Positions 1 to 52,320 of a stretch of 64,000 bases of DNA are shown in pieces. Below the pieces are notes generated by a model. It ran no database searches and was not told the DNA's origin. It saw only the letters and a program-made list of their open reading frames with translations. The stretch comes from an uncultured Lentisphaeraceae bacterium (GTDB lineage: Bacteria; Verrucomicrobiota; Kiritimatiellia; RFP12; DVOR01), in NCBI GenBank assembly GCA_949288955.1, contig CASEMS010000015.1, positions 4,269-68,268 of the forward strand, written 5' to 3'. Each line of letters starts with the position of its first letter. The stretch's first letter is position 1. Made by a program: the position numbers and the translations under genes.

Positions 1-248
1 CGTGAAAAGGAGGCGCGCCGGACGGCGCACCTCGCCCAAACACGTTGCCCAGGTGTGAAAGGTTCCAAGTTTCAGTGGGACAACTTGTTTGCGCAAAGCG
101 CAAAGAGTGCGATGGCTGATCCCATCGCGTGCCACAATGATACCAAAAAGCCCCCACCCCACGCCGCGACCGTCAGCCCTCCTCCACCCAGCGCACCTCC
201 CCCTTTCCCCGAAACGCCACCCGACGACGCCCCCACCCCAAGAACGTC

Positions 249-497
249 AGCCGCCGACGCGAGGTACGTCAGCCGCCGATGCACAGTGGCTCGGCGGCCA
301 CCTTTGTGCGGTGCCCCGTCCCTCGGGTCTTTCGGATTCCCCAAGTCCTTCACGTTCTTCGGGCGGGAAAGGACCTGAACGACCTGAAGGACGGCAAGGT
401 GCCGAAGGAGAGGCTCGGAGGATTGGCGGCCATCCCTCCGAGACTTAGCGGCTGAGGTGAGGAGGGGCAGCCGCCATCTCTCGGAGGATTGGCGGCG
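249..497. repeat. Two clusters of 22-bp-phased imperfect repeats (GTCAGCCGCCGA-type and CGGAGGATTGGCGGCC-type) in the leading intergenic region
   Basis: Seen directly: cgtcagccgccgacgcgaggta / cgtcagccgccgatgcacagtg at 249-314 and ctcggaggattggcggcc...ctcggaggattggcggcgg at 411-497. These are related to the TCAGCCGCTGA/GGCCGCCAATCC units found at other intergenic loci in this window. Confidence 0.5.
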
Positions 498-525
498 GGG
501 GCAAGGGGGAGGAGTCGGGGGATGG

Positions 526-5282: not shown

Positions 5283-5348
5283 GGATCAGCCGCTGAGCCG
5301 AGGTGGATCAGCCGCTGAGCCGAGGTGGATCAGCCGCTGAGCCAAAAT
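5283..5348. repeat. 3 tandem 22-bp units GGATCAGCCGCTGAGCCGAGGT
   Basis: Exact tandem duplication seen in the fba / NifA-like divergent intergenic region. The core TCAGCCGCTGA is an 11-bp palindrome. Confidence 0.85.
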
Positions 5349-5439
5349 TGGCCGGGGCCACCTTCATTCGTGCAAGGGGGACGCCCCCACGCATCCGCGG
5401 CGATTATGATACACTGCGACGCACAAGGCAGGCAAAACC

Positions 5440-6937
<1,498 letters not shown>

Positions 6938-6966
<29 letters not shown>

Positions 6967-11350: not shown

Positions 11351-11366
11351 TGCAACTTCCGTGCCA
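11351..11366 (-). promoter_or_regulatory. Sigma-54 (-24/-12) promoter for gltB
   Basis: Minus strand reads TGGCACGGAAGTTGCA, a perfect TGGCACG-N4-TTGCA consensus. It lies ~30-45 bp upstream of the gltB ATG. Confidence 0.65.
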
Positions 11367-11424
11367 ACGGGCAGGACACCCACCCAAAAGCGGCCCGGTT
11401 CCCTCCCCCCGCCTCCCCCTCCCC

Positions 11425-11818
11425 GAGGATCAGCCGCCGATCCAAGGAGGATCAGCCCCTGATCCAAGGTGACTCAGCCGCTAAGTCTCCGAGAGGTGGC
11501 CGCGGATGGATTCTTTTCCGCGAGGACGCGAGGGTGCGCGAAGGACGGCGGGCTAACGCCGGGCGAAAGCGGCGGGGGCTGACGCCCCCTGGTTTCGCCC
11601 TCCCGCCCGCCGCCTTCGCGCCGCAAGAAAGTTGGCAACCTCCCCATAGAAGCCGGGGCACTCGGCGCGGGAGGGCACGAACGTGCCCGGCGTTAGCGCC
11701 GACGTGTCCCGGCGCGACTGCGTCTTCGCGGAGAATCAGCCGCTAAGTCTCCGAGACTCAGCCGCTGAGACGAGATGGATCGGCCGCCAATCCAAAGAGA
11801 GTCGGCCGCCGAGGGGGC
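11425..11818. repeat. Composite repeat element: 4x 22-bp units, a ~220-bp GC-rich structured core, then 4x 22-bp units (copy 1)
   Basis: 22-bp units at 11425-11512 and 11731-11818 flank the core. The core (~11500-11740) contains perfect hairpins GGGCACGAACGTGCCC and GGCGTTAGCGCC. The core recurs at ~85-90% identity in inverted orientation at 46040-46290. Confidence 0.75.
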
Positions 11819-12014
11819 GAGAAGGAGGGGTTACACGATTGTAAAATAGGGGCGATGTGTTACAAAAATGGATAGGCTCGACGGAAGATTCGGCGCTTGT
11901 TGCGGTTAGACGACGACCGCCAAGGAATCGGGGAGGCGGCTCGGAAAAAACTGTAAAACCCGCAAACGCGGGAGGGGCGCGCCGGGCGGCGTTCTTGGGC
12001 ACGTCCGACGCGTT

Positions 12015-12030
12015 TGGCACGGCGGTTGCA
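12015..12030 (+). promoter_or_regulatory. Sigma-54 (-24/-12) promoter for glnN
   Basis: TGGCACGGCGGTTGCA is a perfect TGGCACG-N4-TTGCA consensus. It lies ~36 bp upstream of the glnN ATG at 12066. Confidence 0.65.
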
Positions 12031-12065: not shown

Positions 12066-14131
<2,066 letters not shown>

Positions 14132-14140
14132 GGCACGGCG

Positions 14141-15862
14141 ATGTCCGACGCGCTCAAGCACGAATGCGGCGTGGCCCTCCTCCGTCTGAGGGGGCCAGCC
14201 GCCCACCCCGGGCAGAGCGCCTGGGGCTTCCGCAAGGCCGCCCTCCTGTTGGAGAAGCAGCACAACCGCGGCCAGGACGGCGCGGGACTGGCCTGCCTCC
14301 ACCTCCGCCCCGCCCAAGGCCGCCCCTGCTACGACCTGGAGAAGTCCGTGGCGCGGATGCCGCTGGCCGACCTGGTGGCGCGTTGCGGTCGGCGGCTGAC
14401 GGAGGAGGGCGACGCCTTCCGCGGCGAACTCTTCCTCGGCCACCTGCGCTACGCCACCTTCGGCCGACACGACCTCGCCGCCTGCCATCCCTTCGTGCGC
14501 GACAGCGCCTTCCTCGACCGCCTCTTGCTGCTGGCCGGCAACTTCAACCTCACCGACACGCGCGACCTGGCCGAAAGCCTCGCCGCCTCCGGCCACCACC
14601 TGCCCAGTCTGGCAGACGGCGCGGTCATCCTCCAATGTCTCACGCACGCACTGGAGCAGGAACGCTCCCGTCCCGAAGATTTCCGCGGCCTCACGCACGT
14701 CCTGCGCGAGGCCGCCTCGCGTTTCGACGGCGCCTTCGTCCTCTGCGGGATGCTCGGCGACGGCACGGCCTTCGCCCTGCGCGACGCCCACGGCATCCGC
14801 CCGGCCTATTGGTGGGAGGGTGAGGAGGCGGTGGCCGTGGCCTCCGAGCGCCCCGCCATCCAAGCCGCCTTCGACGTCCCCACCGAGGCCGTGCGCGAGC
14901 TGCCCCCGGGCGAGGCCCTCATCATCCGCCCCGACGGCTCGGCCTCCCTAGAGCCGTGCCTCGACCCCGCGCCACGGCGGGCGTGCGTCTTCGAGCGCGT
15001 CTACTTCTCCCGCGCCAACGACGCCGAGATCCACGCCGAACGCAAGCGGCTTGGCCACGCCCTCGCGCCGCAGGTGATCCGCGCCCTGGGCGGCGACCTC
15101 GAACATCTCTTCCTGAGCTACATTCCCAACTCCGCGCAGATCTGCTTCCACGGCCTCTTGGAGACCTTGCTGGGGGTGGCCGCGGCGGAGGGGCGCACGG
15201 TGCGCTTCGGGCAGGTGGCGGTGAAGGACGCCCGCTTCCGCACCTTCATCGCCGACGAGGCCACCCGCGACGACCTGGCCATGCACGTCTATGACGTTAC
15301 CTACGGCCTCGTCCGCCCCGGCGACACGCTCGTGGCGCTCGACGATTCCATCGTGCGCGGCAACACGATGCGCGCCGCCATCCTCCCCATCCTCGACCGT
15401 CTCGGCCCGCGCGAGATCGTCGTCGCCAGCAGCGCCCCGCCCGTCCGTTATCCCGACTGCTACGGTATCGACATGGCCACGCTCGACGAGCTCGTCGCCT
15501 TCAACGCCTTGGAGGACGTGCTGCGCGAGGAGGGGCGCGAGGCGTTGCTGCGGGACGCCTACGCCGAGGCCCGCCGTCAGCTGGCTCTGCCGCCCGAATG
15601 CCAAACGAACGTCCTGCGCACCCTCTACGCCCACGTGCCGGAGGCGCGCCTCACCCAGGCCATCGCCCGCCGCCTCCGCCCCGACGGCCTCCGCGCCAAG
15701 CTCACCGTCCTCTTCCAAACCGCCGCCGACCTCCGCCGTTGCTGCCCCAACCACACGGGCGACTGGTACTTCACCGGCGATTACCCCACGCCCGGCGGCA
15801 ACCGCGTAGCCAACCGCGCCCTCGTCAACCACATGGAGCACCGCCATGAACGCGCCTACTGA
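14141..15862 (+). CDS. PurF-like class II (Ntn) glutamine amidotransferase / phosphoribosyltransferase family protein with propeptide
   Basis: [11 protein letters not shown]: the Cys follows a short propeptide, as in B. subtilis PurF. PRTase motif [15 protein letters not shown] is present. At 573 aa it is longer than canonical PurF. Confidence 0.8.
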
Positions 15863-21908: not shown

Positions 21909-22176
21909 ATCCACTCCGCCGCCGATCCCCCACGATAACACATCGATGAGGCAGCAACATCCTCTGCGCTAAACGTTACAAGCGATTGGGATTGCGCCTC
22001 TCGGCCAACGGACACCACCCTCTCCAATGACCCCGACCACACCAAGTTCGTCGAGTCTGCAACCGCGCCTTCTCCGCCCCCTATCCTCCGAAAATGCCGT
22101 CACAGTAAGAAAACCGCCACGGACAACCCTGACAAAACACCAGCACAGAAGCCTTCGTCGTCAAAACACTCCGACC

Positions 22177-24957
22177 TCAAACGCCCGCTTGCGGCTCAAG
22201 CGCATTGGCACGGAGCGATTGAAGAATAGCACCGATGGCCCGACCCTCAGACTCCTCAAAAAGAACCGTGAAATGCGCTGGGCGATCGAATGGCGGGCGC
22301 ACGAAAATACCAAAGTCCTCCACGGCCCCATGCAACGTTACATACGTGATGATACGTTGCACAAACGCGATTTGCGCTTGGTTCAGCGCATGGGTATTGA
22401 TAAATGCCGCAAAGGCTTGGGAGACCGCCTCGCGATCCATGTGCGCAACGCGACGCACCATCAGCCCCAACGGCATGTCCGAAAAACTGCTCGCATAGTC
22501 CGCCTTTGTCCCCAGCACATGGAAGAGGATATGCTCCAACGCCTCGAAATCCGCCTTGGTCAACGGCAAGTTGTGCGTCAATTTGTAGATAGGCGCATCG
22601 TCGGCATGGTCGCGCAGATAGCGTTCCACCCGATCGTGATAGGAAACAAAGTCGTCGCCTTGGGGCAACTCGCCCCCCTCCGCCACGCGCAACACGCGAT
22701 CCGCGACATCCGTGAAGACGATGCGCCGCTCACCTTGCTCCAGGAAACGCGCCAACTCCCGCAACTCCAGGCGCACGGCCTCGAAGGCCAAGGGATCGGC
22801 CTGCTCCCAAAAGGCATCTTCCCGCACGCGCCGCAACGTCTCCAAGCGCGCCACGACCTGCGGGATGGACGTCTTCCGCATGAGCGTCTCGGCGATGGCG
22901 CACACGCGCCGCCGCGCTTGGGAGACGGCGGGCGAACTCTCCGCCCAAGCCAACGTCAGCCCATAGATCAACGCATCGAAACGTTTCGCTGCCTCGTCCG
23001 GTTCCGGGTCGCGCACCAAGGGTGCAATTTCCTCGCACAAGGTCGCCACGTCTTCCTCCGAGAGACAGACGTATGCCTGCCGATCGCGAAACCGTTCCAT
23101 GGCGCGGGCATGGAGCCGCACGCTCACCAATTCCCGGTTTAGCGCCGCCACCTGGCCGTGGCATACCGCGACCAGCCGCTCGCGCCAGGCGCGATAGGTG
23201 TCCGCCCCATATTCCGCGCCCTGAAAAAGGGCAATCAACGCCACGCGCCGCGCGAAAAGCGTCTCCGAGAGGCTCTGCGCCGCCTGCCCTTCTTCGCCGT
23301 CTTTGTTCAGCCGGAAAAAGGCGCAATTGTCGCAATAGTCGAAGAGAAAGAAGCGCCGCTTGCCCGCGTAAGCCCCATCCACCAAGTCTTGACACGCCAA
23401 CCCCGGGCACAGACGCGTGCCGCGCCCAAGCATCTGCCAAAACTTCGCCTTCGAGTAGACCCGCTTAAAGAAGACCAGGTTCACGCACTCCGGCACATCA
23501 ATGCCCGTGTCCATCATGTCCACCGAAATGGCAATCTGCGGCACGCGCCCGGGGTCGCGAAAATGCTCAATCAGCGTCTGCGCGAAACGATCCTCGCACA
23601 CAATGCTCCGCGCGAACGACCCGCGATAGTAAGGATACAGCGCGTTGAAGCGCTCCTCGATGAACCGTGCGTGGCGTGCATTCTGCGCGAAAATAATTGT
23701 TTTCCCCAACTTCTCCCCACCATCCACCTTGATACCACGCTCCATCACGTCCTGCAACACCAAGTCCACCGTGTCCGCGTTGAAAATGAAGTGATTGATC
23801 TGTTCAGGCTCGACCACCGCCGGCGGCGGCTCGTCCCCCCAATCCTCATCGTAGCGCTCTTTGTCCCGCTCCGACAAATCATCATAGACAATACCCCGGT
23901 CCAGCCGCTCCGTCTTCACCTCCATAAGATGATAAGGCACCAACACCTTGTCCCGCCCCTCCGCCGTCTCATATTCATATGCAAAGGTCGGCTCCCCATC
24001 CTTCATCCCAAAAAAGTCATACGTATTCCGATCCACCTCTACCTTCGGCGTCGCCGTCAGCCCCACCAGAATGGCATCGAGATACGCAAAGATCGCCCGA
24101 TACTTCTTGAAAATGCTCCGATGCGCCTCGTCCACCACAATCAAATCGAAATGCGCCACCGAAAAACGGGCACCCTCCGCCGCATCAAGCGCGTTCAGCA
24201 ACGTGGGGTAAGTGGCGAAAACCACCCGCGCCCCGAGCGGCTCCTCCCCCTCGCACAGATTGCACAACGCCAACTCCGGCAAATGTTGCTTGAACGCTTC
24301 CTTCGCCTGGCGCACCAAAGCCAGCCGATCCGCCAAAAAGAGCACGTTCTTCACCCACCCCCCACGGCTCAGCACATCCACCAAACTCACCGCCGTCCGC
24401 GTCTTCCCCGTCCCCGTCGCCATCACCAGCAAATGCCGCCGCCGACCCAATTCCAACCCCTCGCAGATCGCCCGGATCGCCTCCAACTGATACGGCCTGT
24501 TCGTGATCCGCTCATCCACCCGCAGATTGTGCAGCGTCGCCCGCCGCTCCCGGCTGTCCATCAGCCGCTCCAAATCCTCCCGCGCGAAAATCCCGCTCAC
24601 CCGCCGAGGCGACCCGCTTCGGTCGTCCCAAAAGGTCGTCTCCGCCCCATTCGTCAAGAACACCATCGGCCGCCGCCCAAACCGCCGCTCCAACCCATCC
24701 GCGTAAAGCCCCGCCTGCGTCTGCCCCGCCTGGCGATCCACACACCAACGTTTCGCCTCCACCACCGCCAAAGGCAACCCATCCCCGCCAAACAACACAT
24801 AATCCGCCCGCCCCATCCCCGCCGGCAACGCCACCGGGAACTCCCGAACCGCCCCCTCCAACCCCTCGTCCGCAAGCGACCACCCCGCACGCCGCAGATC
24901 CTCGTCAATCCACGCCGCCCGCGTCTCCGCCTCCGTTATCTCCTGCCCATCGCTCAT
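22177..24957 (-). CDS. hsdR: Type I restriction enzyme, R (restriction/helicase) subunit
   Basis: N-terminal MSDGQEITEAETRAAWIDEDLRRAGW is HsdR-like. Helicase motifs GTGKT and a DEAH-like VVDEAHRS are present, 927 aa. Start assigned to ATG 24957; the longer ORF extension has no support. Confidence 0.9.
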   Translation of the reverse strand: MSDGQEITEAETRAAWIDEDLRRAGWSLADEGLEGAVREFPVALPAGMGRADYVLFGGDGLPLAVVEAKRWCVDRQAGQTQAGLYADGLERRFGRRPMVFLTNGAETTFWDDRSGSPRRVSGIFAREDLERLMDSRERRATLHNLRVDERITNRPYQLEAIRAICEGLELGRRRHLLVMATGTGKTRTAVSLVDVLSRGGWVKNVLFLADRLALVRQAKEAFKQHLPELALCNLCEGEEPLGARVVFATYPTLLNALDAAEGARFSVAHFDLIVVDEAHRSIFKKYRAIFAYLDAILVGLTATPKVEVDRNTYDFFGMKDGEPTFAYEYETAEGRDKVLVPYHLMEVKTERLDRGIVYDDLSERDKERYDEDWGDEPPPAVVEPEQINHFIFNADTVDLVLQDVMERGIKVDGGEKLGKTIIFAQNARHARFIEERFNALYPYYRGSFARSIVCEDRFAQTLIEHFRDPGRVPQIAISVDMMDTGIDVPECVNLVFFKRVYSKAKFWQMLGRGTRLCPGLACQDLVDGAYAGKRRFFLFDYCDNCAFFRLNKDGEEGQAAQSLSETLFARRVALIALFQGAEYGADTYRAWRERLVAVCHGQVAALNRELVSVRLHARAMERFRDRQAYVCLSEEDVATLCEEIAPLVRDPEPDEAAKRFDALIYGLTLAWAESSPAVSQARRRVCAIAETLMRKTSIPQVVARLETLRRVREDAFWEQADPLAFEAVRLELRELARFLEQGERRIVFTDVADRVLRVAEGGELPQGDDFVSYHDRVERYLRDHADDAPIYKLTHNLPLTKADFEALEHILFHVLGTKADYASSFSDMPLGLMVRRVAHMDREAVSQAFAAFINTHALNQAQIAFVQRIITYVTLHGAVEDFGIFVRPPFDRPAHFTVLFEESEGRAIGAILQSLRANALEPQAGV

Positions 24958-25098
24958 GACAACCCCATTATCGCACAAAACCACCCCATCGCACAAACCA
25001 ACCGCCAAAGTCGCCTTGCCTGTTCCGGTGCGTTTGCTACAATAAAGGCAGAAAGAACGCCGCCGGAGCACACGAGGGTGTATCACCAGCATGAGCAA

Positions 25099-25695
25099 TC
25101 ATGTGGCAGTCGTGCCGGGGGTTCTTTCTTTTTCTTTATCGAACCGCGCCTGCCTTTCTGCCAGAATCTCTTGAAACTCTCCAGATTGGTATGCCCTCAA
25201 CAACCATTTCGAAGGCCCATACGATATCAAGCATAATTTTTCACTTCTGTACGCTCTCGAGAAATGATGTAATGGTTTGATGAATTCATAGTCGACTAAA
25301 TACTGTACGACTCCTGCGTCTTGTGGTAAGGAAAGTCTCCTATCCTCACTCATCAACAGTTGTGTTACCAAAGCAAATGGGAGTTCATTCATATGCTTTA
25401 GTTCTTCCCACTGCTTTTGCTCCAAGGCCAACTCCTTTAATTGTTCCTTTATCCACACACCTATTTTCCCAGCGATGAAAACCACACAAACCGTTAACAG
25501 AACCAAAAAGACAAGCCCAATGAATGGCCGATAGCTTTGGACAAATCCGCTTATTCCAAATCGAATGAGAATCGATTCGGGGAGGAACAGTAATGCTCCG
25601 GAAACGATTGTCAATACAACCACGCCTCTTTTTGAAAAAAGAACCGTGTACAGCAATTTCACTACCTGTTCCAAACACGCACTTCCATCAATCAT
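25099..25695 (-). CDS. Hypothetical two-TM membrane protein embedded between hsdS and hsdR
   Basis: 198 aa from ATG 25695, which has a GAGGGGAAG RBS and overlaps the hsdS stop as ATGATTGA. Two hydrophobic helices (VVVLTIVSGALLFLP, FIGLVFLVLLTVCVVFIAG) precede a charged soluble C-terminal region. Local GC is ~45-50% against ~70% background. I recognise no family for it. Confidence 0.6.
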   Translation of the reverse strand: MIDGSACLEQVVKLLYTVLFSKRGVVVLTIVSGALLFLPESILIRFGISGFVQSYRPFIGLVFLVLLTVCVVFIAGKIGVWIKEQLKELALEQKQWEELKHMNELPFALVTQLLMSEDRRLSLPQDAGVVQYLVDYEFIKPLHHFSRAYRSEKLCLISYGPSKWLLRAYQSGEFQEILAERQARFDKEKERTPGTTAT

Positions 25696-26791
25696 TTCCG
25701 CACTTCCCCTCAATATTGAAGTAACGTTGCTTTAATGATGCTTGCAAGGTTTCCGCGACAAGGAGTGATGCCTGAATAGCCTTTTTCTGTTTTTCTATGC
25801 CCGCTGATTGATTGGAGAAGACTTCAATAAGCGATAAGGGCGGGAACGGCAGCTCAATCAGATCCATCATCTGATTGGTGATTTGGTTGATGGTGGTGGT
25901 TTTGGCCGTTCGGATTTGTAGACGAAAAGACGGGGTTTGGAAGAAGGCTTGGACATATTCAGGATATGGTGTCCGGATAATCTTCATGAAAGAGCCGAAA
26001 TACATAGGCTCCGGTAATCTGGGAATGATGGCGGACTTCCCCACTAATTGTATGCTTCCATTACAGGCGCACATAAGGATGTCGTTCTCTTTAACCAAAT
26101 AACGTTCTTTGATCGGTATCTTTACCCGAACCGTATCGTCCAAGACAAGCGCTTGGTTCTGAATGTTGCCGGCACGGAGAACAACCGTTCCTTCCAAAGA
26201 AACATCGATCGGTTTATAGTTCAAGCCATTATAATATTCGGCAATATCAGACAGTTTTCGTATTGGCCATTGTTTTGAGTTGGTCACCATATCGCCGAAG
26301 AGCTCGTGGAAGCGGGATTGAGCAAGGGTGTCCAACAGGGCGAGTTGGCGGCGGTAGTTGGCGATGAGCGCATCGGCTTGGTCGAGGACGGCGGCGATGC
26401 GGCGTTGCTCGGGCAAAGAGGGAATGTCAAAAACCAACTCTTTTAGCCATTTGAAGTGCCGACTATAGCCAGTATTTGGAATGGATGTCGAGGCCAAATA
26501 GTGATACAGATAGCGGGGATTTACATCGGCTTGCCTTGGGCGAAGAATCTTCGTACCATCAGCGCCAAGGAAGAAGGGTTCATCCACATACTTCGCTATA
26601 CGCGTGTGGTCACCAAAAACAATCGCAGGGACATCATTGAAAAGCCCTTCTTCTAAGTCCGTGTAACCTGCGACTTGATTATGGCCTTGATCGATAATCG
26701 GGTGCGCACCTTTCGACAGATAGTTACCCGTCTGGAGCTTCCTCCCTCGTTTTGTCTCATCTGCAAACAATTCTCGGAAGGGAACCTTCAC
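25688..26791 (-). CDS. hsdS: Type I restriction-modification specificity subunit
   Basis: Two target-recognition-domain (TRD) architecture with conserved central and C-terminal coiled regions (LPEQRRIAAVLDQADALI...). The GTG start overlaps the hsdM stop as GTGA. Low-GC gene. Confidence 0.85.
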   Translation of the reverse strand: MKVPFRELFADETKRGRKLQTGNYLSKGAHPIIDQGHNQVAGYTDLEEGLFNDVPAIVFGDHTRIAKYVDEPFFLGADGTKILRPRQADVNPRYLYHYLASTSIPNTGYSRHFKWLKELVFDIPSLPEQRRIAAVLDQADALIANYRRQLALLDTLAQSRFHELFGDMVTNSKQWPIRKLSDIAEYYNGLNYKPIDVSLEGTVVLRAGNIQNQALVLDDTVRVKIPIKERYLVKENDILMCACNGSIQLVGKSAIIPRLPEPMYFGSFMKIIRTPYPEYVQAFFQTPSFRLQIRTAKTTTINQITNQMMDLIELPFPPLSLIEVFSNQSAGIEKQKKAIQASLLVAETLQASLKQRYFNIEGKCGND

Positions 26792-28308
26792 AGCATGGCC
26801 TCCAGGTTGGCGAGGGAGGCGGCGGCTTGGGCGTTGAGGGATTTGAGTTCGGCGAGGAGCTGGGAAGTGGGGGGATAGGCGACGGGGACGTAGGGGATTT
26901 CTTTGTATTTGTTGATGGAGAGGTCGTAGGCGTTGGCGGCAAGTTCGGCTTTGGGGACGAGGAAACTTTGGGCGGTGCGGGGGCGGGCAGCCTCGGCGGG
27001 GAGATTGGCGAATCGGGCGAGGATGTCTGGGATGTCGTTGGCGTCGATGGGGTTACGTTTGTCGTCGAGGGAGAAGCCGTCGGCGCGCATATCGTAGAAC
27101 CAGACGTTGTCGGTGCCGCCGGAGCCGGTTTTGGTGAAGACGAGGATGGCAGTGGAGACGCCGGCATAGGGCTTGAAGACGCCGGAGGGCATGGAGACGA
27201 CGGCGCGGAGGGCGTGGTCCTCGACAAGCATTTTCCGCAAGGCGCGGTGGGCTTTGGAGGAACCGAAAAGGACTCCGTCGGGGACGATGCAGGCGCAACG
27301 GCCGCCGAGTTTGAGGAGGCGGAGGAAGAGAGCGACGAAAAGGAGCTCGGTCTTTTTGGTGTCGGCGACGGCGCGGAGGTCGGGGCTGATGGATGCCTCG
27401 TCGACGTTGCCTTTGAAGGGCGGGTTGGCGAGGCAGACGGTGAAGGCGTTCGCGCGTGCGCACTGCTTAGAGACGCTGTCTTGGTAGGCGATTTCGGGGT
27501 GTCGGATGCCGTGCAGCATGAGGTTCATGGCGGCGATGCGCAACATGGTGCGATCCATGTCAAAGCCGGTGAAGAGCGCGCCCTCGAAATGGCGCCATTG
27601 GGGCTCGGTCATGGTGTCGCCGTGGCGGGTGCGGATCCATTCGGCTGCTGAGATGAGGAAACCGGCGGTGCCGCAGGCGGGGTCGCAGAGGGTGTCGTCC
27701 GGGGTTGGGGCGACGAGGGCGACCATCAGCTCGCGAATGTGTTTGGGCGTGCGGAATTGGCCGTTGCGCCCGGAGGTGGCCAGCTTGCTGAGCATGTATT
27801 CGTAAAGATCGCCGCGGACGTCTTGGTCGCGCAGGTCGTGCTCGTAGAGCTCGTCCAAGCCGGCGACGAGTTTTTGGAGCATTTGCGGCGTGGGGATGAG
27901 GAAGATGGCGTCTTCCATGTAGCGGGCGAAGGCGGTCTCCGGCTCGTCGCCGCCGGGGCGGGCCTCGGCGAAGTCGGGGGCGTCTGGATCCGGCAATGTT
28001 CCGCCGCGCATGGCCTTGATGGCGGGGAAGACGCGGTCGCGCACGATGGCAAACATTTCGCGGGGGTCACGGTTCTTGAAGCGGCTCCACCGCATGGACT
28101 GCCCCGCCACGGATTGGGGGAAGAGGCGGGGGCGATTTGTGGGGCCAAGCCGCCCCAAGCGCTCCGTCTCGCGCTCCTGCTCATCCAAATCGTGAATGAA
28201 CATCAGGTAAGTCAGTTGCTCGATGCCCTTCAGAGGATCGGCGATGCCGCCGTTCCACAAATCCGTCCAAATCCTATCGACCTTACCCTTGATTGCGCCC
28301 GTGATCAT
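26788..28308 (-). CDS. hsdM: Type I restriction-modification N6-adenine DNA methyltransferase subunit
   Basis: HsdM N-domain (ITGAIKGKVDRIWTDLWNGGI) and the NPPF catalytic motif (CLANPPFKG). Start chosen at ATG 28308, which has a GAAAGG RBS. An alternative upstream ATG at 28332 exists. Confidence 0.88.
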   Translation of the reverse strand: MITGAIKGKVDRIWTDLWNGGIADPLKGIEQLTYLMFIHDLDEQERETERLGRLGPTNRPRLFPQSVAGQSMRWSRFKNRDPREMFAIVRDRVFPAIKAMRGGTLPDPDAPDFAEARPGGDEPETAFARYMEDAIFLIPTPQMLQKLVAGLDELYEHDLRDQDVRGDLYEYMLSKLATSGRNGQFRTPKHIRELMVALVAPTPDDTLCDPACGTAGFLISAAEWIRTRHGDTMTEPQWRHFEGALFTGFDMDRTMLRIAAMNLMLHGIRHPEIAYQDSVSKQCARANAFTVCLANPPFKGNVDEASISPDLRAVADTKKTELLFVALFLRLLKLGGRCACIVPDGVLFGSSKAHRALRKMLVEDHALRAVVSMPSGVFKPYAGVSTAILVFTKTGSGGTDNVWFYDMRADGFSLDDKRNPIDANDIPDILARFANLPAEAARPRTAQSFLVPKAELAANAYDLSINKYKEIPYVPVAYPPTSQLLAELKSLNAQAAASLANLEAML

Positions 28309-28379
28309 GCCAAACCTTTCCGTAGCCCGCATTGTAACAAACTTTGCGCAATACCTCCCCGTCGAAGACGGTTACGCAA

Positions 28380-29900
28380 TCAGGCGTCGACGAAGAGCTC
28401 GGCGGTGGCGAAGAGGGGGTCGTTGGTGGCGCGGATGCCGAGGCGGCGGAGGCCGGCCTCGTCGCCGGGGGTGAGCATATGGGAGAGGTGCATCTCGCAG
28501 TCGCGCAGGTCGGCGAGGCGTTCGAGGGCGGCCTTGGCGTCGGGATCGGTGGCAGCGCAGATGGCGAGGGAGACGAGGGTCTCGTCGAGGTTGAGCGAAC
28601 CGTACTTGCCCTTGAGGATGCCCTGCTTCATGTGGGTGACGGAGGCGATGGTCTCGGGGGCGAGGAGGTGGCGGCCCTGCGGGATGCCGGCCAGGCGCTT
28701 GACGGCGTTGAGCACGGTGGCGGCGGCGGCGTGGAGGTGGGGAGAGTTCTTGCCGCGAACGATCTCGCCGTCGGGCAGCTCCAAGGCCGCGCCGCAGGCC
28801 ACGCCTTCGAGGGCATGGGTGAGCGAGGCGTCGTGCGCGGCCTGGCGCGCGGGCACCACCACGGCGCGGTCCTCGGGGCTGAGGCGCAGTTGGCGCATGA
28901 GCCGCTCAAGGATCTCCACGGGGCGCTTGTCGGAGGAGCCTTTGGCGACCGCGTCGGAGAGGTGGCGGAAGTAACGGCGGATGACCTCCTGACGCGCGGC
29001 CTCCTGGCAGACGGCGTCGTCCACGATGCCGGCGGAGATACGGTTCACGCCCATGTCGGTGGGGCTCTTGTAGGGGCACTCGCCGCCGCGGTCGAGGCGC
29101 GTCCAGATCTCGCGCAGGAGGGGGAAGGCGTCCACGTCGCGGTTGTAATTCACGGCCACCTTGCCGTAGGCCTCCAGGTGGAAGGGGTCGATCATGTTGA
29201 TGTCACCCAGGTCGGCGGTGGCGGCCTCGTAGGCGAGGTTCACGGGATGCTTGAGGGGCAGATCCCAGACGGGGAAGGTCTCGAACTTGGCGTAACCGGC
29301 GGGGCGGCCGGCCATGCGGTCGTGATAGAGCATGGTCAGGCAGGTGGCCAACTTGCCGGAGCCGGGGCCGGGGCCGGTGACCACCACGATGGGGCGCGTC
29401 GTCTCCACGTAGGCGTTGGCGCCGTAACCTTCGGGGGAGACCACCAGGTCAAGGTTGGAGGGATAGCCCGGCACCGCGCGGTGCAGCTTCACCGTCACCC
29501 CGCGCGACTCCAACTTGTTGCGGAACTGCAACGCCGCAGGCTGACCGTCAAACCGCGTGATCACCACCGCACAGACGTGGATGCCCCAGGCGCGGAGCGA
29601 ATCGATGAGCTTGAGCGCGTCGTCGTCGTAGGAGATGCCGAAGTCCGCGCGCATCTTCTTGCGCTCGATGTCCTCCGCGTAGACGCAGAGGATGATCTCC
29701 GCCTTGTCCCCCAACGAGCGGAGCAGGCGCAATTTCGCGTTCGGGTCGTAGCCCGGCAACACGCGCGCGGCGTGGTAGTCGAACATCAGCTTCCCGCCGA
29801 ACTCCAGATAAAGTTTGTTGCCGAAAGCCTCCGCCCGCGCCATCAGGCCCTCGGCCTGTTTCCGCAAATACGCCTCGTTGTCGAATCCGATCTTCCGCAT
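28380..29900 (-). CDS. DUF1846 / UPF0371 family protein
   Basis: Matches the conserved UPF0371 blocks KLYLEFGGKL, AARVLPGY, GPGSGKLATC, FETFPVW, HPVNLAYEAATADL and NMIDPFHL. Start at internal ATG 29900 (MRKIGFDNEAYL). Confidence 0.7.
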   Translation of the reverse strand: MRKIGFDNEAYLRKQAEGLMARAEAFGNKLYLEFGGKLMFDYHAARVLPGYDPNAKLRLLRSLGDKAEIILCVYAEDIERKKMRADFGISYDDDALKLIDSLRAWGIHVCAVVITRFDGQPAALQFRNKLESRGVTVKLHRAVPGYPSNLDLVVSPEGYGANAYVETTRPIVVVTGPGPGSGKLATCLTMLYHDRMAGRPAGYAKFETFPVWDLPLKHPVNLAYEAATADLGDINMIDPFHLEAYGKVAVNYNRDVDAFPLLREIWTRLDRGGECPYKSPTDMGVNRISAGIVDDAVCQEAARQEVIRRYFRHLSDAVAKGSSDKRPVEILERLMRQLRLSPEDRAVVVPARQAAHDASLTHALEGVACGAALELPDGEIVRGKNSPHLHAAAATVLNAVKRLAGIPQGRHLLAPETIASVTHMKQGILKGKYGSLNLDETLVSLAICAATDPDAKAALERLADLRDCEMHLSHMLTPGDEAGLRRLGIRATNDPLFATAELFVDA

Positions 29901-30068
29901 ATCCGTGCTCCGCTGCTTCAACGGCCCGTCCGGGCCGACACGGGGCACCATTATAACACACCCGGGCCCGTCGTGGGAATGCGCCGCGAACAGGCCAAGC
30001 GTCTCCAGGGCCAATCGACGCCCCACGTTTTCCCTCGCAGGCACCAAGGTGCCCGGCGATAGCGAACG

Positions 30069-30200
30069 CCCCCGATCCTCATCGGGTCAGCCCCCGATCC
30101 TCAGCGAGTCGGCCCCCGATCCTCAGCGAGTCGGCCCCCGATCCTCAGCGAGTCGGCCCCCGATCCTCAGCGAGTCGGCCCCCGATCCATCCTCTATGCG
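30069..30200. repeat. Six tandem 22-bp units (CCCCCGATCCTCAGCGAGTCGG), four of them identical
   Basis: Direct tandem array seen in the DUF1846 / lysS intergenic region. There are no spacers, so this is not CRISPR. The unit is the reverse-strand relative of the GGATCAGCCGCTGA family. Confidence 0.85.
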
Positions 30201-45513: not shown

Positions 45514-45971
45514 TCATGGCGCCGTCCGCCCTTGGCCCTCCAACGCCTTCACGAGGCAGACCGTGTGGCCGATCGGCTCATAGCCGAGCCGCTGGTAGAA
45601 TCGGAAGGCCGGGACCTCCCGCGAGGTGAGAAGGATGAGATGGGTGAGCCCCTGCGTCGCCACGCGCCGCTCGATGGCCCGCAGGAACGCGCCGCCAATC
45701 CCCCTCCCCTGCAAACGCGGCGACACCCCGAACTCCTCCATCCAAAACTCCGGCCCCGTCTGCCACGTCCGCCGCCGCCCTAGCGCCAAGCCCACCAACG
45801 TTTTCCCCTCGGCGCCCCCAACAATTCGGAGAGGTAGTCCCGGAGGCGCTCCTCCGGCCAGACGTCGTTCCACGGTTCCCCGGTGAAGATGTCCAGGAAC
45901 AACGCCCTGACCACCTCAATCTCCCCCATGCCCAATTCCGTGATGGCCCCCTCGATGGTTTCCCTTTGCAT
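45514..45971 (-). pseudogene. GNAT family N-acetyltransferase interrupted by a frameshift in a G5 homopolymer
   Basis: The N-terminal part (MQRETIEG...FTGEPWNDVW...DYLSELL) and C-terminal part (RIVGGAEGKTLVGLALG...LQGRGIGGAFL...FYQRLGYEP) lie in different frames. The junction is near ttgggggcg at ~45812-45816. Either a sequencing error or a true pseudogene. Confidence 0.5.
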
Positions 45972-46000
45972 ACCGTTCAGTATACCACAGCCGCAAGCGG

Positions 46001-46352
46001 GGAGGCTCGGCGGCTGATCCACCGAGACTCAGCCGCTAAGTCTCCTTGGACTGGCGGCCGAGTCTCCGCGAAGACGCTGTCGCGCCGGGACACATCGGCG
46101 CTAACACCGGGCACATTCGTGCCCTCCCGCGCCGAGTGCCCCGGCTTTAAGAGGGAAGGTCGCCCACTTCCGTGGCGCGAAGGCGGCGGGCGGGAGGGCG
46201 AAACAAGGGGGCGCTCCGCCCCCGCCGCTTTCGCCCGGCGTTAGCCCGCCGTCCTTCGCGCACCCTCGCGTCCTCGCGGAGAAGAAAGTCTCGGCGGCTG
46301 ATCCACCGAGACTCAGCCGCTAAGTCTCCTTGGACTGGCGGCTGATCCGAGG
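46001..46352. repeat. Composite repeat element, copy 2 (inverted relative to 11425-11818): a 53-bp direct repeat flanks a ~240-bp structured core
   Basis: ctcggcggctgatccaccgagactcagccgctaagtctccttggactggcggc occurs at both 46005-46057 and 46290-46342. The reverse complement of the core between them aligns with 11500-11740, including the GGGCACGAA(C/T)GTGCCC hairpin. Confidence 0.75.
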
Positions 46353-46400
46353 CGGGGTGGCCGCGGTCGCGGTTTTTGGGGAGGGGATGGGGAGGGGGGA

Positions 46401-50667: not shown

Positions 50668-50749
50668 ACGCTCTGCCTCGCCTTCCAAAGGTGAAAAACA
50701 ATGCTTTTATCTTACCACAAACGTACCCCCCGCGCAGAAGGGGCGGCGG

Positions 50750-50860
50750 TCTCCCCGAGGATCAGCGGCTGATCCAAGGTGAGTCAGCGGCCAATCCACC
50801 TCGGGTCAGCGGCTGATCCAAGATGAGTCAGCGGCCGATCCAAGGTGAGGCAGGGGCCAT
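50750..50860. repeat. Five 22-bp-phased units (GAGGATCAGCGGCTGATCCAAG type)
   Basis: Seen directly: gaggatcagcggctgatccaag / gtgagtcagcggccaatccacc / tcgggtcagcggctgatccaag / atgagtcagcggccgatccaag / gtgaggcaggggccatcagcgaag. Confidence 0.75.
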
Positions 50861-52320
50861 CAGCGAAGATGCGCGCCGATGGAGAGGATGCGCGGCTCGG
50901 CGCGGCTCTCCTCGACGACGAGGCGAAGGGCCGTGGCCTCGATGGGCGCCTCCAAACGAAGGATACGCTTATGACCGATGGTGGTGGCTCCGGCGATGGG
51001 CTCCCATGCGTCGGCCCCGGGGCGTTTGACCTCGAAGCGGAAGCGCTCGACACGTTGGCCTTGCGTGATGTCCTCTTGGGCGACGAGAGTATCGAAGCGG
51101 ATGGGCGTGGGCAGGGATACCTCGGTCTGGCCGGGCCGCACGTCGCCGAGAAGGTTGATGCCGAAGGTCTTGCGGAGGGCCTCACCGAACGCCCGGAGGC
51201 GGGCGACGTCATTGGCATGGAAAAGGCCCTCGGGCGTGGGAGGGACATTGAGGAGCAGCACGGCGTTGCGGCCGACGGAGCGATCGTAGATGGAGAGGAG
51301 TTGGTCGAGGCTCTTCACCTGATCGTCCTGGCTGTCGTGGTAGAACCAGCCGGGGCGGATGGAGACGTCGCACTCGGCGGGATACCAGACCAGACGATCG
51401 GAGGCGAGGATGTCGTCGATCGCGCCGAGCGTGGGGGCGTTGGCGGAGAGTCGGCCCTGGGCGGTTTGGCGCTTGGCCATGGCGGCGATGTCCGAGCCGT
51501 CGAAATGGAACGGCGCGAAGCCGTCGCGGACGGCCTCGTTGTCGATGGCCTCGATGGGGACGACGCTCCACTCGCTGTCGCGGGCGAGCCCCGACTCATT
51601 GCCCACCCAGCGGACGTCCGGGCCGGAGACGGCGATGACGCAGGCAGGGTTGCGTTCGCGGATGAGGGCGTAGTAGCGGGCCCAGTCGTAGGTCTGCCGC
51701 TTGCCGTTGGCGCCCTCGCCGCAGGCGCCGTCGAACCAAATCTCGTCGATGGGGCCGTAATTGTCGAAGAGCTCGGCAAGTTGCCCCACGAAGAAGTCGT
51801 TGTAGGCGTCCGTGCCATAGGTCGGCTCATGGCGGTCCCAGGGCGAAAGGTAGAAACCGACGCGGAGGCCCTCGGCGCGACAGGCATCGGCGAACTCCCG
51901 GCAGACGTCGCCCTTCCCGCCCTTCCACGGGGAGGAGGCGACGGAGTGTCGGGTGAGTTTGCTGGGCCAAAGGCAGAAACCGTCGTGGTGCTTGGCAGTG
52001 AGGATGGCCAAGCGGAAACCGGCGGCCTTGAGCGCACGCGCCCATTGGCGGCAATCAAGCGCGGTGGGGTTGAACAAGGCGGGATCCTCGTCGCCCGTGC
52101 CCCACTCGCGGTCGGTGAAGGTGTTGATGCCGAAGTGAACGAAGGCGGTCAGCTCCAAACGTTGCCACGCCACTTGGCGCGGCGAAGGTCGAACCTCCGC
52201 CGCCGCGGCGACACGTGCGCGCTCGGCGGGGGAGAGGTCGGCCAACGTGGCCGCCGCCGTAGGCAAAGCAAGGGCGACGGCGAGGAAAGCAGAAAAGGCA
52301 AAGGTAGGGAACGTTCTCAT
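50860..52320 (-). CDS. Alpha-L-fucosidase, glycoside hydrolase family 29, secreted
   Basis: Signal peptide MRTFPTFAFSAFLAVALALPTAAA. GH29 signature TAKHHDGFCLWPS and the catalytic region. Confidence 0.85.
   Translation of the reverse strand: MRTFPTFAFSAFLAVALALPTAAATLADLSPAERARVAAAAEVRPSPRQVAWQRLELTAFVHFGINTFTDREWGTGDEDPALFNPTALDCRQWARALKAAGFRLAILTAKHHDGFCLWPSKLTRHSVASSPWKGGKGDVCREFADACRAEGLRVGFYLSPWDRHEPTYGTDAYNDFFVGQLAELFDNYGPIDEIWFDGACGEGANGKRQTYDWARYYALIRERNPACVIAVSGPDVRWVGNESGLARDSEWSVVPIEAIDNEAVRDGFAPFHFDGSDIAAMAKRQTAQGRLSANAPTLGAIDDILASDRLVWYPAECDVSIRPGWFYHDSQDDQVKSLDQLLSIYDRSVGRNAVLLLNVPPTPEGLFHANDVARLRAFGEALRKTFGINLLGDVRPGQTEVSLPTPIRFDTLVAQEDITQGQRVERFRFEVKRPGADAWEPIAGATTIGHKRILRLEAPIEATALRLVVEESRAEPRILSIGAHLR

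What the first reader, a model, noticed from the sequence alone, without database searches (positions are those of the whole stretch)
11425..11818. Structured ~240-bp core flanked by 22-bp repeats, present twice in inverted orientation (second copy at 46001-46352)
Two copies share ~85-90% identity across ~240 bp and lie 35 kb apart in opposite orientation. Each core is bracketed by direct repeats: 53 bp identical at copy 2, and TCAGCCGCTAAGTCTCCGAGA at both ends of copy 1. Both cores contain perfect hairpins (GGGCACGAACGTGCCC, GGCGTTAGCGCC). Differences between copies fall in loops or look compensatory. This fits a small-RNA gene family or a MITE-like non-autonomous mobile element, not random intergenic DNA. 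Copy 1 also sits exactly between two divergent sigma-54 promoters (gltB and glnN), so it could act as a regulatory spacer or enhancer platform.
Basis: seen in the sequence. Interest (0 to 1): 0.7.

Follow-up and report, generated by a model that had tools for sequence, protein, structure and literature searches.

The report
Small mobile hairpin element in repeat arrays
The two look-alike 216-bp stretches are copies of a small, non-coding, MITE-like repeat element that sits inside arrays of a 22-bp palindromic intergenic repeat and is present, absent or flipped at the same site in near-identical strains, so it is mobile "junk-like" DNA of a new family rather than a demonstrated RNA gene or regulatory platform.

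Summary
There are two 216-bp cores, 90.8% identical: 11517-11732 (+) and 46065-46280 (-). Each has 13-bp terminal inverted repeats and two long hairpin end modules around a variable centre. Each is flanked by direct repeats of 21 bp or 53 bp made of 22-bp palindromic units.

Those units are not private to the element. They form tandem arrays in at least 8 intergenic regions of the window, and array length differs by about ±22 or +45 bp between strains.

In strains about 98% identical, the gltB-glnN site is filled (as here), filled in the opposite orientation, or precisely empty with one copy of the 21-bp repeat left. A relative with 77% identical GltB lacks the element. More copies and fragments lie downstream of rpoC on another contig, and under five spurious ORFs on other contigs.

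Nothing supports an RNA gene. Rfam gave no match, there are no compensatory changes, there is no promoter or terminator, and orientation relative to neighbouring genes varies.

Best reading: a new family of non-autonomous mobile element, MITE/BIME-like, that targets one subtype of the 22-bp unit. Its mobilising enzyme is unknown. Interest is moderate.

The parts
11427..11494 (.). Left array at copy 1: three 22-bp palindromic units (u1-u3). The last unit is of the GACTCAGCCGCTAAGTC subtype.
11474..11494 (+). Left copy of the 21-bp direct repeat TCAGCCGCTAAGTCTCCGAGA. It is the only copy retained in the empty allele.
   Evidence: empty site in L024
11495..11516 (+). One degenerate unit ending in a T-run (GGTGGCCGCGGATGGATTCTTT), lying between the left repeat and the core. 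It is absent from the empty allele.
11517..11732 (+). Core copy 1, 216 nt from terminal repeat to terminal repeat (type A).
11517..11529 (+). Left terminal inverted repeat, TCCGCGAGGACGC.
11536..11621 (+). End module H1: an 86-nt hairpin read on the top strand, with internal loop TAACGCC/TCCC and an apical hairpin GGGGGC-loop-GCCCCC.
11622..11652 (+). Central spacer, the most variable part among the four element types.
11653..11712 (-). End module H2: a 60-nt hairpin. Read on the bottom strand it carries the same motif GCTAACGCCGGGC...GCCCTCCCGC as H1.
11720..11732 (+). Right terminal inverted repeat, GCGTCTTCGCGGA. It matches the left repeat at 12 of 13 positions.
11736..11756 (+). Right copy of the 21-bp direct repeat.
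11733..11821 (.). Right array at copy 1: four 22-bp units.
46065..46280 (-). Core copy 2, 216 nt (type C), between the murJ stop and a GNAT gene. It is present in the same orientation in all strain contigs that reach the core (L014-L021, L023); L022 ends about 100 nt past murJ.
46290..46342 (-). Copy of the 53-nt exact direct repeat (about 2.5 units) on the H1 side of copy 2.
46006..46058 (-). Copy of the 53-nt exact direct repeat on the H2 side of copy 2.

Best explanation
The core is a non-coding, non-autonomous mobile DNA element of a new family (MITE-like).

Shown:
- It is 216 bp long and bounded by 13-bp terminal inverted repeats.
- It is built from two conserved end modules in inverted orientation, each a long hairpin.
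- Both modules carry the motif GCTAACGCCGGGC...GCCCTCCCGC, which starts 37 nt from its terminus.
- A freely varying spacer of about 30 nt separates the modules.
- The element lives inside arrays of the host's 22-bp palindromic intergenic repeat, always next to the GACTYRGCSGCYRAGTC subtype of unit.
- It is flanked by a duplication of one to about three array units, whose sequence differs from locus to locus.

Inferred:
- An enzyme encoded elsewhere in the genome recognises the two symmetrical hairpin ends and the palindromic target unit.
- That enzyme inserts the element with duplication of the unit.
- Later recombination between the palindromic units deletes the element precisely, inverts it, and shuffles modules.

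Any effect on neighbouring genes is a by-product. At gltB, for example, the element adds 262 bp between the promoter and an upstream palindrome.
For: Anatomy:
- The terminal repeats match at 12 of 13 positions, and the shared motif lies at the same distance from both ends.
- Across four element types the ends are conserved and the centre is variable. Variable positions are 12 of 152 paired against 22 of 64 unpaired (p = 5.6e-6).
- H1 and H2 have different lower stems, and each stays self-complementary. Four positions differ on both sides.

Mobility:
- L024 has a precise empty site with one copy of the 21-bp repeat, and its gltB-glnN spacer is 487 bp rather than 748 bp.
- L011 and L026 carry the same allele as the window.
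- L010 and L025 carry the core inverted between flanks that are 98% identical to the window.
- A relative with 77% identical GltB has the same gene pair and promoter but no core.
- Relatives with 88-91% identical MurJ have no core in about 55 kb.

Other loci:
- Downstream of rpoC on L060 there is a full copy flanked by a 24-bp exact direct repeat, plus a truncated copy.
- Besides P0288, which lies over the L060 copies, five more spurious ORFs on separate contigs translate core-like DNA.

Target:
- All 3 exact GACT...AGTC units in the window abut a core, out of 36 units that match a stricter 11-nt centre pattern.
- The flanking repeats are near-identical within a locus and differ between loci.

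No coding capacity:
- ORFs across the core have no Pfam match.
Against: - The flanking repeats are 21, 24 and 53-59 bp long, not a fixed short length as for most transposases.
- Between zero and two array units lie between the left repeat and the left terminus. A simple cut-or-copy-and-paste event does not predict this.
- No transposase or recombinase gene lies in the window or in the fetched strain loci.
- No autonomous partner with the same ends was found. However, only about 100 kb of distinct DNA from this organism could be read.
- The filled and inverted alleles have the same total length (580 and 580-581 bp between anchors). This fits an inversion in place better than a second insertion.
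- The empty allele could equally be a deletion between the direct repeats.
- Truncated and module-only copies show that plain recombination also moves these sequences.
Confidence: 0.55

Rival explanations
1. The core has no enzyme of its own. It is one of several hairpin modules carried passively inside hyper-recombinogenic 22-bp palindromic arrays, as in a BIME-like mosaic. Slippage, template switching or homologous and ectopic recombination between units copies, deletes and inverts whatever lies between them.
For: - Array length differs between strains by -22, +22 and +45 bp.
- The units are palindromic, so any two units are both direct and inverted repeats.
- The flanking repeats vary in length, as does the number of units beside the core.
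- The A and B alleles have equal length.
- L060 has a 350-bp tandem duplication and a core fragment fused to another module, M.
- H2-only tandem modules appear in P0290 and P0291.
- A second, unrelated hairpin module, K, is embedded in arrays at window 300-430, L017 and L060.
Against: - Passive carriage does not explain the symmetrical bipartite ends: the 13-bp inverted repeats with the same motif 37 nt in from each end.
- It does not explain the strong conservation of both ends against a free centre.
- It does not explain the exclusive association with one unit subtype.
- Homology of 21-24 bp is short for RecA-dependent ectopic exchange (general knowledge).
Confidence: 0.25
2. The core is the gene of a structured small RNA of about 216 nt, present as a multi-copy family. 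The RNA might spread by borrowing a transposase, as ssr9 does with ISPpu9.
For: - The predicted fold is very stable, and the top strand folds better because it has G-U pairs.
- Stems are conserved and loops vary.
- There is a precedent: solo copies of the sRNA gene ssr9 sit in REP sequences and are mobilised in trans by the IS110-family element ISPpu9 (PMC12288879).
Against: - No Rfam family reaches its threshold; the best E-value is 0.05, at 20 bits against a 60-bit cut-off.
- 0 of 80 predicted pairs show compensatory change.
- There is no sigma-70-like promoter and no convincing intrinsic terminator in or beside the core.
- The two conserved motifs lie on opposite strands, so they cannot both act in one RNA.
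- Orientation relative to neighbouring genes is not fixed. The core points the same way as glnN and murJ in the window, the opposite way in L010 and L025, and against rpoC in L060.
Confidence: 0.1
3. Copy 1 is a programmed invertible switch or an enhancer/spacer platform that tunes the divergent sigma-54 promoters of gltB and glnN.
For: - The core lies between the two sigma-54 promoters.
- Both orientations occur in the population.
- The insertion adds 262 bp between the gltB promoter and the conserved palindrome at 11839-11865. That is close to a whole number of helical turns (inference).
Against: - The two orientations differ by 5.5% in the core and much more in the adjacent units, while the flanks are about 98% identical. 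This is an old polymorphism, not rapid switching.
- No recombinase gene is nearby.
- One strain and the outgroup run the same promoters without the core.
- Other copies sit in unrelated contexts: murJ-GNAT and downstream of rpoC.
Confidence: 0.05

Closest known systems
Bacterial MITEs (for example Correia/NEMIS, ERIC/RU-1, MITEAba12)
   Same: Both are small (about 100-400 bp), non-coding and multi-copy. Both are intergenic, have terminal inverted repeats, fold into long hairpins, are flanked by target-derived direct repeats, and are present or absent between strains (reviews PMC3184786 and PMC2229807 listed; own knowledge).
   Different: - Classical MITEs have a short duplication of fixed length set by the parent transposase. 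Here it is 21, 24 or 53-59 bp and made of whole array units.
- The conserved ends here are about 106 nt on the H1 side and 80 nt on the H2 side, and each holds its own hairpin.
- No parent IS is known.
REP sequences and BIMEs of enterobacteria and pseudomonads
   Same: The 22-bp units resemble REPs: short imperfect palindromes, strictly extragenic, clustered at regular spacing, and combined with other motifs into mosaics (abstract of PMC2817692).
   Different: - The units here are head-to-tail tandem arrays with an exact 22-bp period, not alternating orientations with linker motifs.
- No conserved GTAG or CGTC tag is seen (abstract of PMC3733652).
- No RAYT gene was seen, and genome-wide copy number is unknown.
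- The core itself is far larger than any BIME linker motif.
REPINs mobilised by RAYT transposases
   Same: They are non-autonomous hairpin-forming doublets of inverted palindromic repeats, thought to be moved in trans by a single-copy enzyme (PMC3337134).
   Different: REPINs are a single hairpin of two REPs. Here two different hairpins are bracketed by a terminal stem. No RAYT was found in the DNA available.
Solo ssr9 modules of ISPpu9 (IS110 family) in Pseudomonas putida REPs
   Same: It is a short non-coding module that sits inside palindromic extragenic repeats. It exists apart from any transposase gene and is proposed to be a selfish passenger moved in trans through circular intermediates (PMC12288879).
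   Different: - ssr9 is flanked by the A'/B' boxes shared with the IS.
- ssr9 recombines at an AG dinucleotide without a long duplication.
- ssr9 is a demonstrated RNA.
- None of these three features is shown here.
IS1549 / IS1634 (IS1634 family)
   Same: They are the known case of insertions that make long direct repeats of variable length (8-514 bp) (PMC2266710). That matches the 21-59 bp repeats seen here.
   Different: This is only a lead. No transposase of that family, or of any other, was found, and the end sequences were not compared.
Pneumococcal BOX elements
   Same: They are modular intergenic repeats built from a few hairpin-forming boxes in variable number and order (PMC3049150, listed; own knowledge).
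   Different: The sequences are unrelated. BOX modules are about 45-60 nt and are not embedded in a periodic palindromic array.

Membership tests
MITE (non-autonomous transposable element) | Terminal inverted repeats | tested here: met
   TCCGCGAGGACGC and the reverse complement of GCGTCTTCGCGGA match at 12 of 13 positions. Similarity extends about 50 nt at 73%.
MITE (non-autonomous transposable element) | Small size and no coding capacity | tested here: met
   The core is 216 bp. ORFs across it have no Pfam match. The forward-frame translation finds no protein.
MITE (non-autonomous transposable element) | Multiple dispersed copies | tested here: met
   There are two loci in the window, a third on L060 under P0288, and five more spurious ORFs over core-like DNA on other contigs. 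Genome-wide number is unknown.
MITE (non-autonomous transposable element) | Target-site duplication of a fixed short length | tested here: not met
   The direct repeats are locus-specific, but they are 21, 24 and 53-59 bp long and made of array units.
MITE (non-autonomous transposable element) | Insertion polymorphism with an empty site | tested here: met
   L024 has a precise empty site. L010 and L025 have the core inverted.
MITE (non-autonomous transposable element) | A related autonomous IS with the same ends | not testable with these tools
   The source genome could not be scanned, and there is no ISfinder access. No transposase lies in about 100 kb of this organism. There are no matches in plasmids, phages or viral contigs.
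REP / BIME (applied to the 22-bp units) | Short imperfect palindrome that is strictly extragenic and clustered | tested here: met
   The unit is a 17-nt palindrome plus a 5-nt spacer. 36 units (by a stricter 11-nt centre pattern) lie in at least 8 intergenic regions of 64 kb, and only 2 further matches lie inside genes.
REP / BIME (applied to the 22-bp units) | High copy number (over 100 per genome) and association with a RAYT | not testable with these tools
   The whole genome was not available, and no RAYT lies in the window.
Small-RNA gene family | Covariation supporting the fold | tested here: not met
   0 of 80 pairs changed on both sides. The stems are simply invariant.
Small-RNA gene family | Own promoter and terminator, or a match to a curated RNA family | tested here: not met
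   There is no Rfam match at gathering score and no promoter or terminator in the core. The promoter scan covers the sigma-70 type only.
Small-RNA gene family | Discrete transcript | not testable with these tools
   No expression data are available.
Programmed invertible switch (inverton) | The same sequence in both orientations, with an invertase nearby | tested here: not met
   The A and B cores are 94.5% identical against 98% for the flanks. No recombinase gene is nearby.
IS110-type passenger module (ssr9-like) or bridge RNA | Insertion in REP with only a dinucleotide overlap, boxes shared with an IS110 element, and both guide loops in one RNA | tested here: not met
   Long direct repeats are present. 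The two conserved loops lie on opposite strands. No IS110 transposase was seen.

The most novel reading that the evidence does not exclude
The 22-bp palindromic units are the recombination sites of a dedicated, still unidentified enzyme. The core is a cassette that leaves as a circle by unit-to-unit recombination and re-enters any GACT...AGTC unit in either orientation. That would produce the unit-length direct repeats, the precise empty site and the flipped allele. The two hairpin ends, or an RNA made from them, would recruit or guide the enzyme. This would be a cassette-mobility system built on REP-like arrays, distinct from both classical MITE transposition and REPIN/RAYT.
Probability: 0.12. 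Interest if true: 0.7.

Novelty: new variant of a known kind. Interest (0 to 1): 0.4.

Why it matters
Uncultured Kiritimatiellia-like bacteria have no described repeat or mobile-element families. A full-text search for the phylum name together with REP terminology found nothing.

The locus provides a defined new element family with a natural set of filled, inverted and empty alleles in near-identical strains. That is the material needed to work out how small hairpin elements move inside REP-like arrays. [quoted passage not shown]

There are two practical consequences:
- The element and the arrays break short-read assemblies. Contigs L022, L023 and L026 end in them.
- They generate spurious ORFs in protein databases (P0288-P0292, P0294).

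One copy changes the spacing of the gltB sigma-54 promoter from its upstream region by 262 bp. This could alter regulation of nitrogen assimilation between strains, but that is untested.

Tried and rejected
Searches that found nothing useful:
- The single genome-contig scan, with the 20-mer GGACGGCGGGCTAACGCCGG, gave only 4 chance hits in unrelated MAGs. The source genome could therefore not be censused.
- A metagenome scan with the shared hairpin motif gave 0 hits.
- A second metagenome scan, with a three-unit array pattern, gave 33 loci, none with a core.
- Two viral-contig scans and BLAST against plasmids and phages gave no match.
- Rfam gave nothing at gathering score for the whole window, and nothing credible at E up to 10 around copy 1.
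- The translated-core search in the forward frame gave no hits.
- An nhmmer profile of the four core types, run over the window and 60 loci, gave no extra divergent copies.

Ideas rejected:
- Protein-coding: the ORFs over the core have no Pfam match.
- Simple flip between the 13-bp terminal repeats: the T-run moves with the H1 end, and the flanking units differ.
- Rapid phase-variable inverton: the two orientations are 5.5% diverged.
- IS110-type bridge RNA: the two conserved loops are on opposite strands, and long direct repeats are present.
- Sigma-54 promoter, sigma-70 promoter or IHF site in the central spacer: nothing there is conserved between the types.
- A short hidden target duplication next to the termini: none is consistent across the four loci.
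- Enhancer platform: the core is absent from one strain and from the outgroup.

Full report

Yes. The window holds two copies of a 216-nt core, at 11517-11732 on the + strand and 46065-46280 on the - strand. They are 90.8% identical from terminus to terminus. TCAGCCGCTAAGTCTCCGAGA occurs at 11474-11494 and 11736-11756. A 53-nt exact repeat occurs at 46006-46058 and 46290-46342. The core is far more structured than shuffled sequence, with z = -5.5 on the + strand and -4.6 on the - strand. The divergent sigma-54 promoters of gltB (11351-11366, -) and glnN (12015-12030, +) are also there.

**2. Anatomy of the core**

The core is bounded by 13-bp terminal inverted repeats: TCCGCGAGGACGC and the reverse complement of GCGTCTTCGCGGA, which match at 12 of 13 positions. 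Inside lie two long hairpins.

- H1 (11536-11621) reads on the top strand.
- H2 (11653-11712), read on the bottom strand, has the same design.
- In both, a G+C-rich lower stem leads to an internal loop TAACGCC/TCCC and then an upper stem GGGC...GCCC.
- The motif GCTAACGCCGGGC...GCCCTCCCGC occurs three times in the window, only in these hairpins, against 0 expected by chance.
- In both ends TAACGCC starts exactly 37 nt from the terminus.

The element is therefore two-fold symmetrical, with two end modules in inverted orientation around a spacer of about 30 nt. The lower stems of H1 and H2 differ in sequence, and each remains self-complementary. Four positions differ on both sides.

**3. The flanks belong to a larger repeat system**

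The 22-bp repeats are not private to the element. A 17-nt palindrome (consensus GGATCAGCCGCTGATCC) plus 5 nt forms head-to-tail arrays. These arrays lie at about 244-499, 5283-5343, 11405-11824, 30062-30188, 41979-42051, 45982-46366, 50737-50872 and 54858-54960, all between genes.

Array length differs between strains: -22 and +22 bp at the 50737 array and +45 bp at the 5283 array. Other hairpin modules are embedded in these arrays too. One sits at 300-430 and has relatives in L017 and L060. Another, M, is in L060.

Within the window, every exact unit of the subtype GACTYRGCSGCYRAGTC (3 of 3) abuts a core.

**4. Organism and relatives**

MurJ and GltB homologues place the window in a Kiritimatiellia-like lineage. 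GltB of the window is 100% identical to P0121, which lies on a 75,217-bp contig. Ten cluster mates at 96-98% identity come from a series of ENA assemblies. The contigs of these strains were fetched and are about 98% identical to the window in flanking DNA.

**5. Alleles at the gltB-glnN site**

This is the decisive evidence. The site exists in three states.

| State | Loci | Evidence |
|---|---|---|
| Filled, same orientation as the window | L011, L026 (contig ends inside the core) | |
| Filled, core reversed (type B) | L010, L025 | |
| Empty | L024 | |

- The type B core is 94.5% identical to type A and has different adjacent units.
- In the empty allele the gltB-glnN spacer is 487 bp instead of 748 bp. 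The array reads straight through, with a single copy of the 21-bp repeat and no scar.
- The same sample as L024 carries copy 2 on contig L020.

Copy 2 is present in one orientation in every strain contig that reaches it: L014-L021 in full and L023 in part. L022 ends about 100 nt past murJ.

More distant relatives lack the element. A relative with 77% identical GltB keeps the gltB/glnN pair and a sigma-54 promoter, but it has other short repeats and no core. Relatives with 88-91% identical MurJ have neither cores nor 22-bp units in about 55 kb.

**6. More copies**

A search with the reverse-frame translation of the core against 1.84 billion representative proteins found six spurious ORFs that read across core-like DNA. 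They lie on six separate contigs. Some contain tandem H2-only modules or fusions to other modules.

The one contig that could be fetched was L060, which carries the region downstream of rpoC. It has three relevant features:

- a full copy (type D), with stems identical to the other types and with different loops and spacer, flanked by a 24-bp exact direct repeat;
- a truncated copy fused to module M;
- a 350-bp tandem duplication.

**7. RNA gene or DNA element?**

The evidence does not support an RNA gene.

- No Rfam family matches.
- Across six sequences of three types, 0 of 80 predicted pairs show a change on both sides. The stems are simply invariant, and variation sits in the loops and the spacer: 12 of 152 paired positions against 22 of 64 unpaired (p = 5.6e-6).
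- There is no sigma-70-like promoter, and no convincing intrinsic terminator, in or next to the core.
- The two conserved motifs lie on opposite strands.
- The element points with, or against, its neighbouring genes depending on locus and strain.

This conservation pattern, with two long ends conserved and a free centre, is what a transposable element whose ends are recognition sites shows. An RNA product is not excluded.

**8. Most likely mechanism**

*Shown:*

- symmetrical ends;
- direct repeats made of array units that differ between loci;
- association with one unit subtype;
- a precise empty site, and an inverted allele;
- dispersal to unrelated loci.

*Inferred:*

- An enzyme encoded elsewhere binds the two hairpin ends and inserts the element at a GACT...AGTC unit, duplicating one to three units.
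- Recombination between the palindromic units then deletes, inverts and reshuffles the element.

*Weaknesses:*

- The duplication length varies (21, 24, 53-59 bp).
- Between zero and two units lie between the left repeat and the left terminus.
- The A and B alleles have equal length.
- No transposase was seen.

Long duplications of variable length do have a precedent in IS1549 and IS1634 (PMC2266710). The main rival is passive carriage by recombination within the arrays. An invertible switch is unlikely, because the two orientations are 5.5% diverged and no invertase gene is nearby. An enhancer role is not needed, because the promoters exist without the core.

**9. Comparison with known systems**

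The element works like a MITE and meets most MITE criteria. It fails the criterion of a fixed short duplication, and the parent IS could not be tested.

The arrays resemble REP/BIME clusters. They differ in being exact tandem arrays, in lacking a GTAG or CGTC tag, and in having no known RAYT.

The nearest functional analogy is the solo ssr9 module. It rides the IS110-family element ISPpu9 into REP sequences of Pseudomonas putida (PMC12288879). Its defining features, namely the A'/B' boxes, the dinucleotide overlap and a proven RNA, are not met here.

**10. Verdict and caveats**

This is a real, non-random feature: a new family and architectural variant of small non-autonomous intergenic repeat elements. 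It is of moderate interest.

Caveats:

- All strain comparisons rest on metagenome assemblies.
- A 21-bp repeat could in principle mislead an assembler at very small k. However, the inverted allele was assembled independently twice (L010 and L025), and the empty allele is consistent with the surrounding sequence.
- Genome-wide copy number, the mobilising enzyme and expression remain unknown.

Noticed in passing
window 244-499, 5283-5343, 30062-30188, 41979-42051, 50737-50872, 54858-54960: These are tandem arrays of the same 22-bp palindromic unit in many intergenic regions, with no core in them. Array length differs between near-identical strains: -22 bp (L015) and +22 bp (L017) at 50737, and +45 bp (L025) at 5283.
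   Followed up: partly
window 300-430; L017 2147-2277; L060 9629-9700: A second, unrelated hairpin module of about 105-130 nt (GTCCTTCA...GACCTGAAGGAC) is embedded between 22-bp units. Its copies elsewhere are 77-86% identical. The arrays therefore host several kinds of insert.
   Followed up: partly
window about 12848 (glnN, 12066-14189): The window has a 1-nt deletion relative to three near-identical strains. It splits type III glutamine synthetase into two reading frames, whereas the strains encode an intact 688-aa protein. It is either a pseudogene or an assembly error.
   Followed up: partly
window 45514-45970 (- strand): The GNAT acetyltransferase gene just downstream of core copy 2 is split by a frameshift in the window and in most strains (ORFs of 63 aa and 94 aa). 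It is intact (139 aa) in L021.
   Followed up: no
window 22000-28400: This is a low-GC island (45-63% against 68% overall). It carries a type I restriction-modification system (HsdR 22177-25098, HsdS 25688-26791, HsdM 26788-28332, all on the - strand) and a SieB-like gene (25099-25713, -). A DUF3800-VII RNA motif (Rfam RF02967) lies at 25052-25132 (+). By coordinate projection, the contigs of L010 and L011 end at about window 28.6 kb and 23.6 kb, in or beside this island.
   Followed up: no
window 11839-11865: The palindrome TTGTAA-N15-TTACAA lies between the element and the glnN sigma-54 promoter and is conserved in all strains. It is a candidate binding site for the GAF-domain sigma-54 activator encoded next to gltB (5410-6966).
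   Followed up: no
L013 9540-9800 (gltB-glnN spacer of the 77% relative): The related species has a different short repeat family (GGCCCACTGGG and GGCCCAGTGGGCC motifs) at the orthologous spacer. Each lineage therefore seems to carry its own intergenic repeats.
   Followed up: no
L030, L033, L043, L050, L056, L058, L040/L044 (JGI metagenome contigs): Unrelated contigs with 44-74% GC carry tandem arrays of 22-bp period built around the same palindrome centre, TCAGCSGCTGA. L033 has units almost identical to those of the window. It is unclear whether this reflects a shared DNA-binding protein or chance among tandem repeats.
   Followed up: no
L060 8733-9432: Downstream of rpoC there is a 350-bp tandem duplication (95% identical). 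It contains a hairpin module M whose start (TTTTCACCGCAAAGACGC) resembles the H1 end of the core, three 22-bp units, and a core truncated within H1.
   Followed up: partly
L022, L023, L026 (contig ends): Three strain contigs stop inside or just beside the core or its arrays. This is expected if the repeats break short-read assemblies.
   Followed up: no
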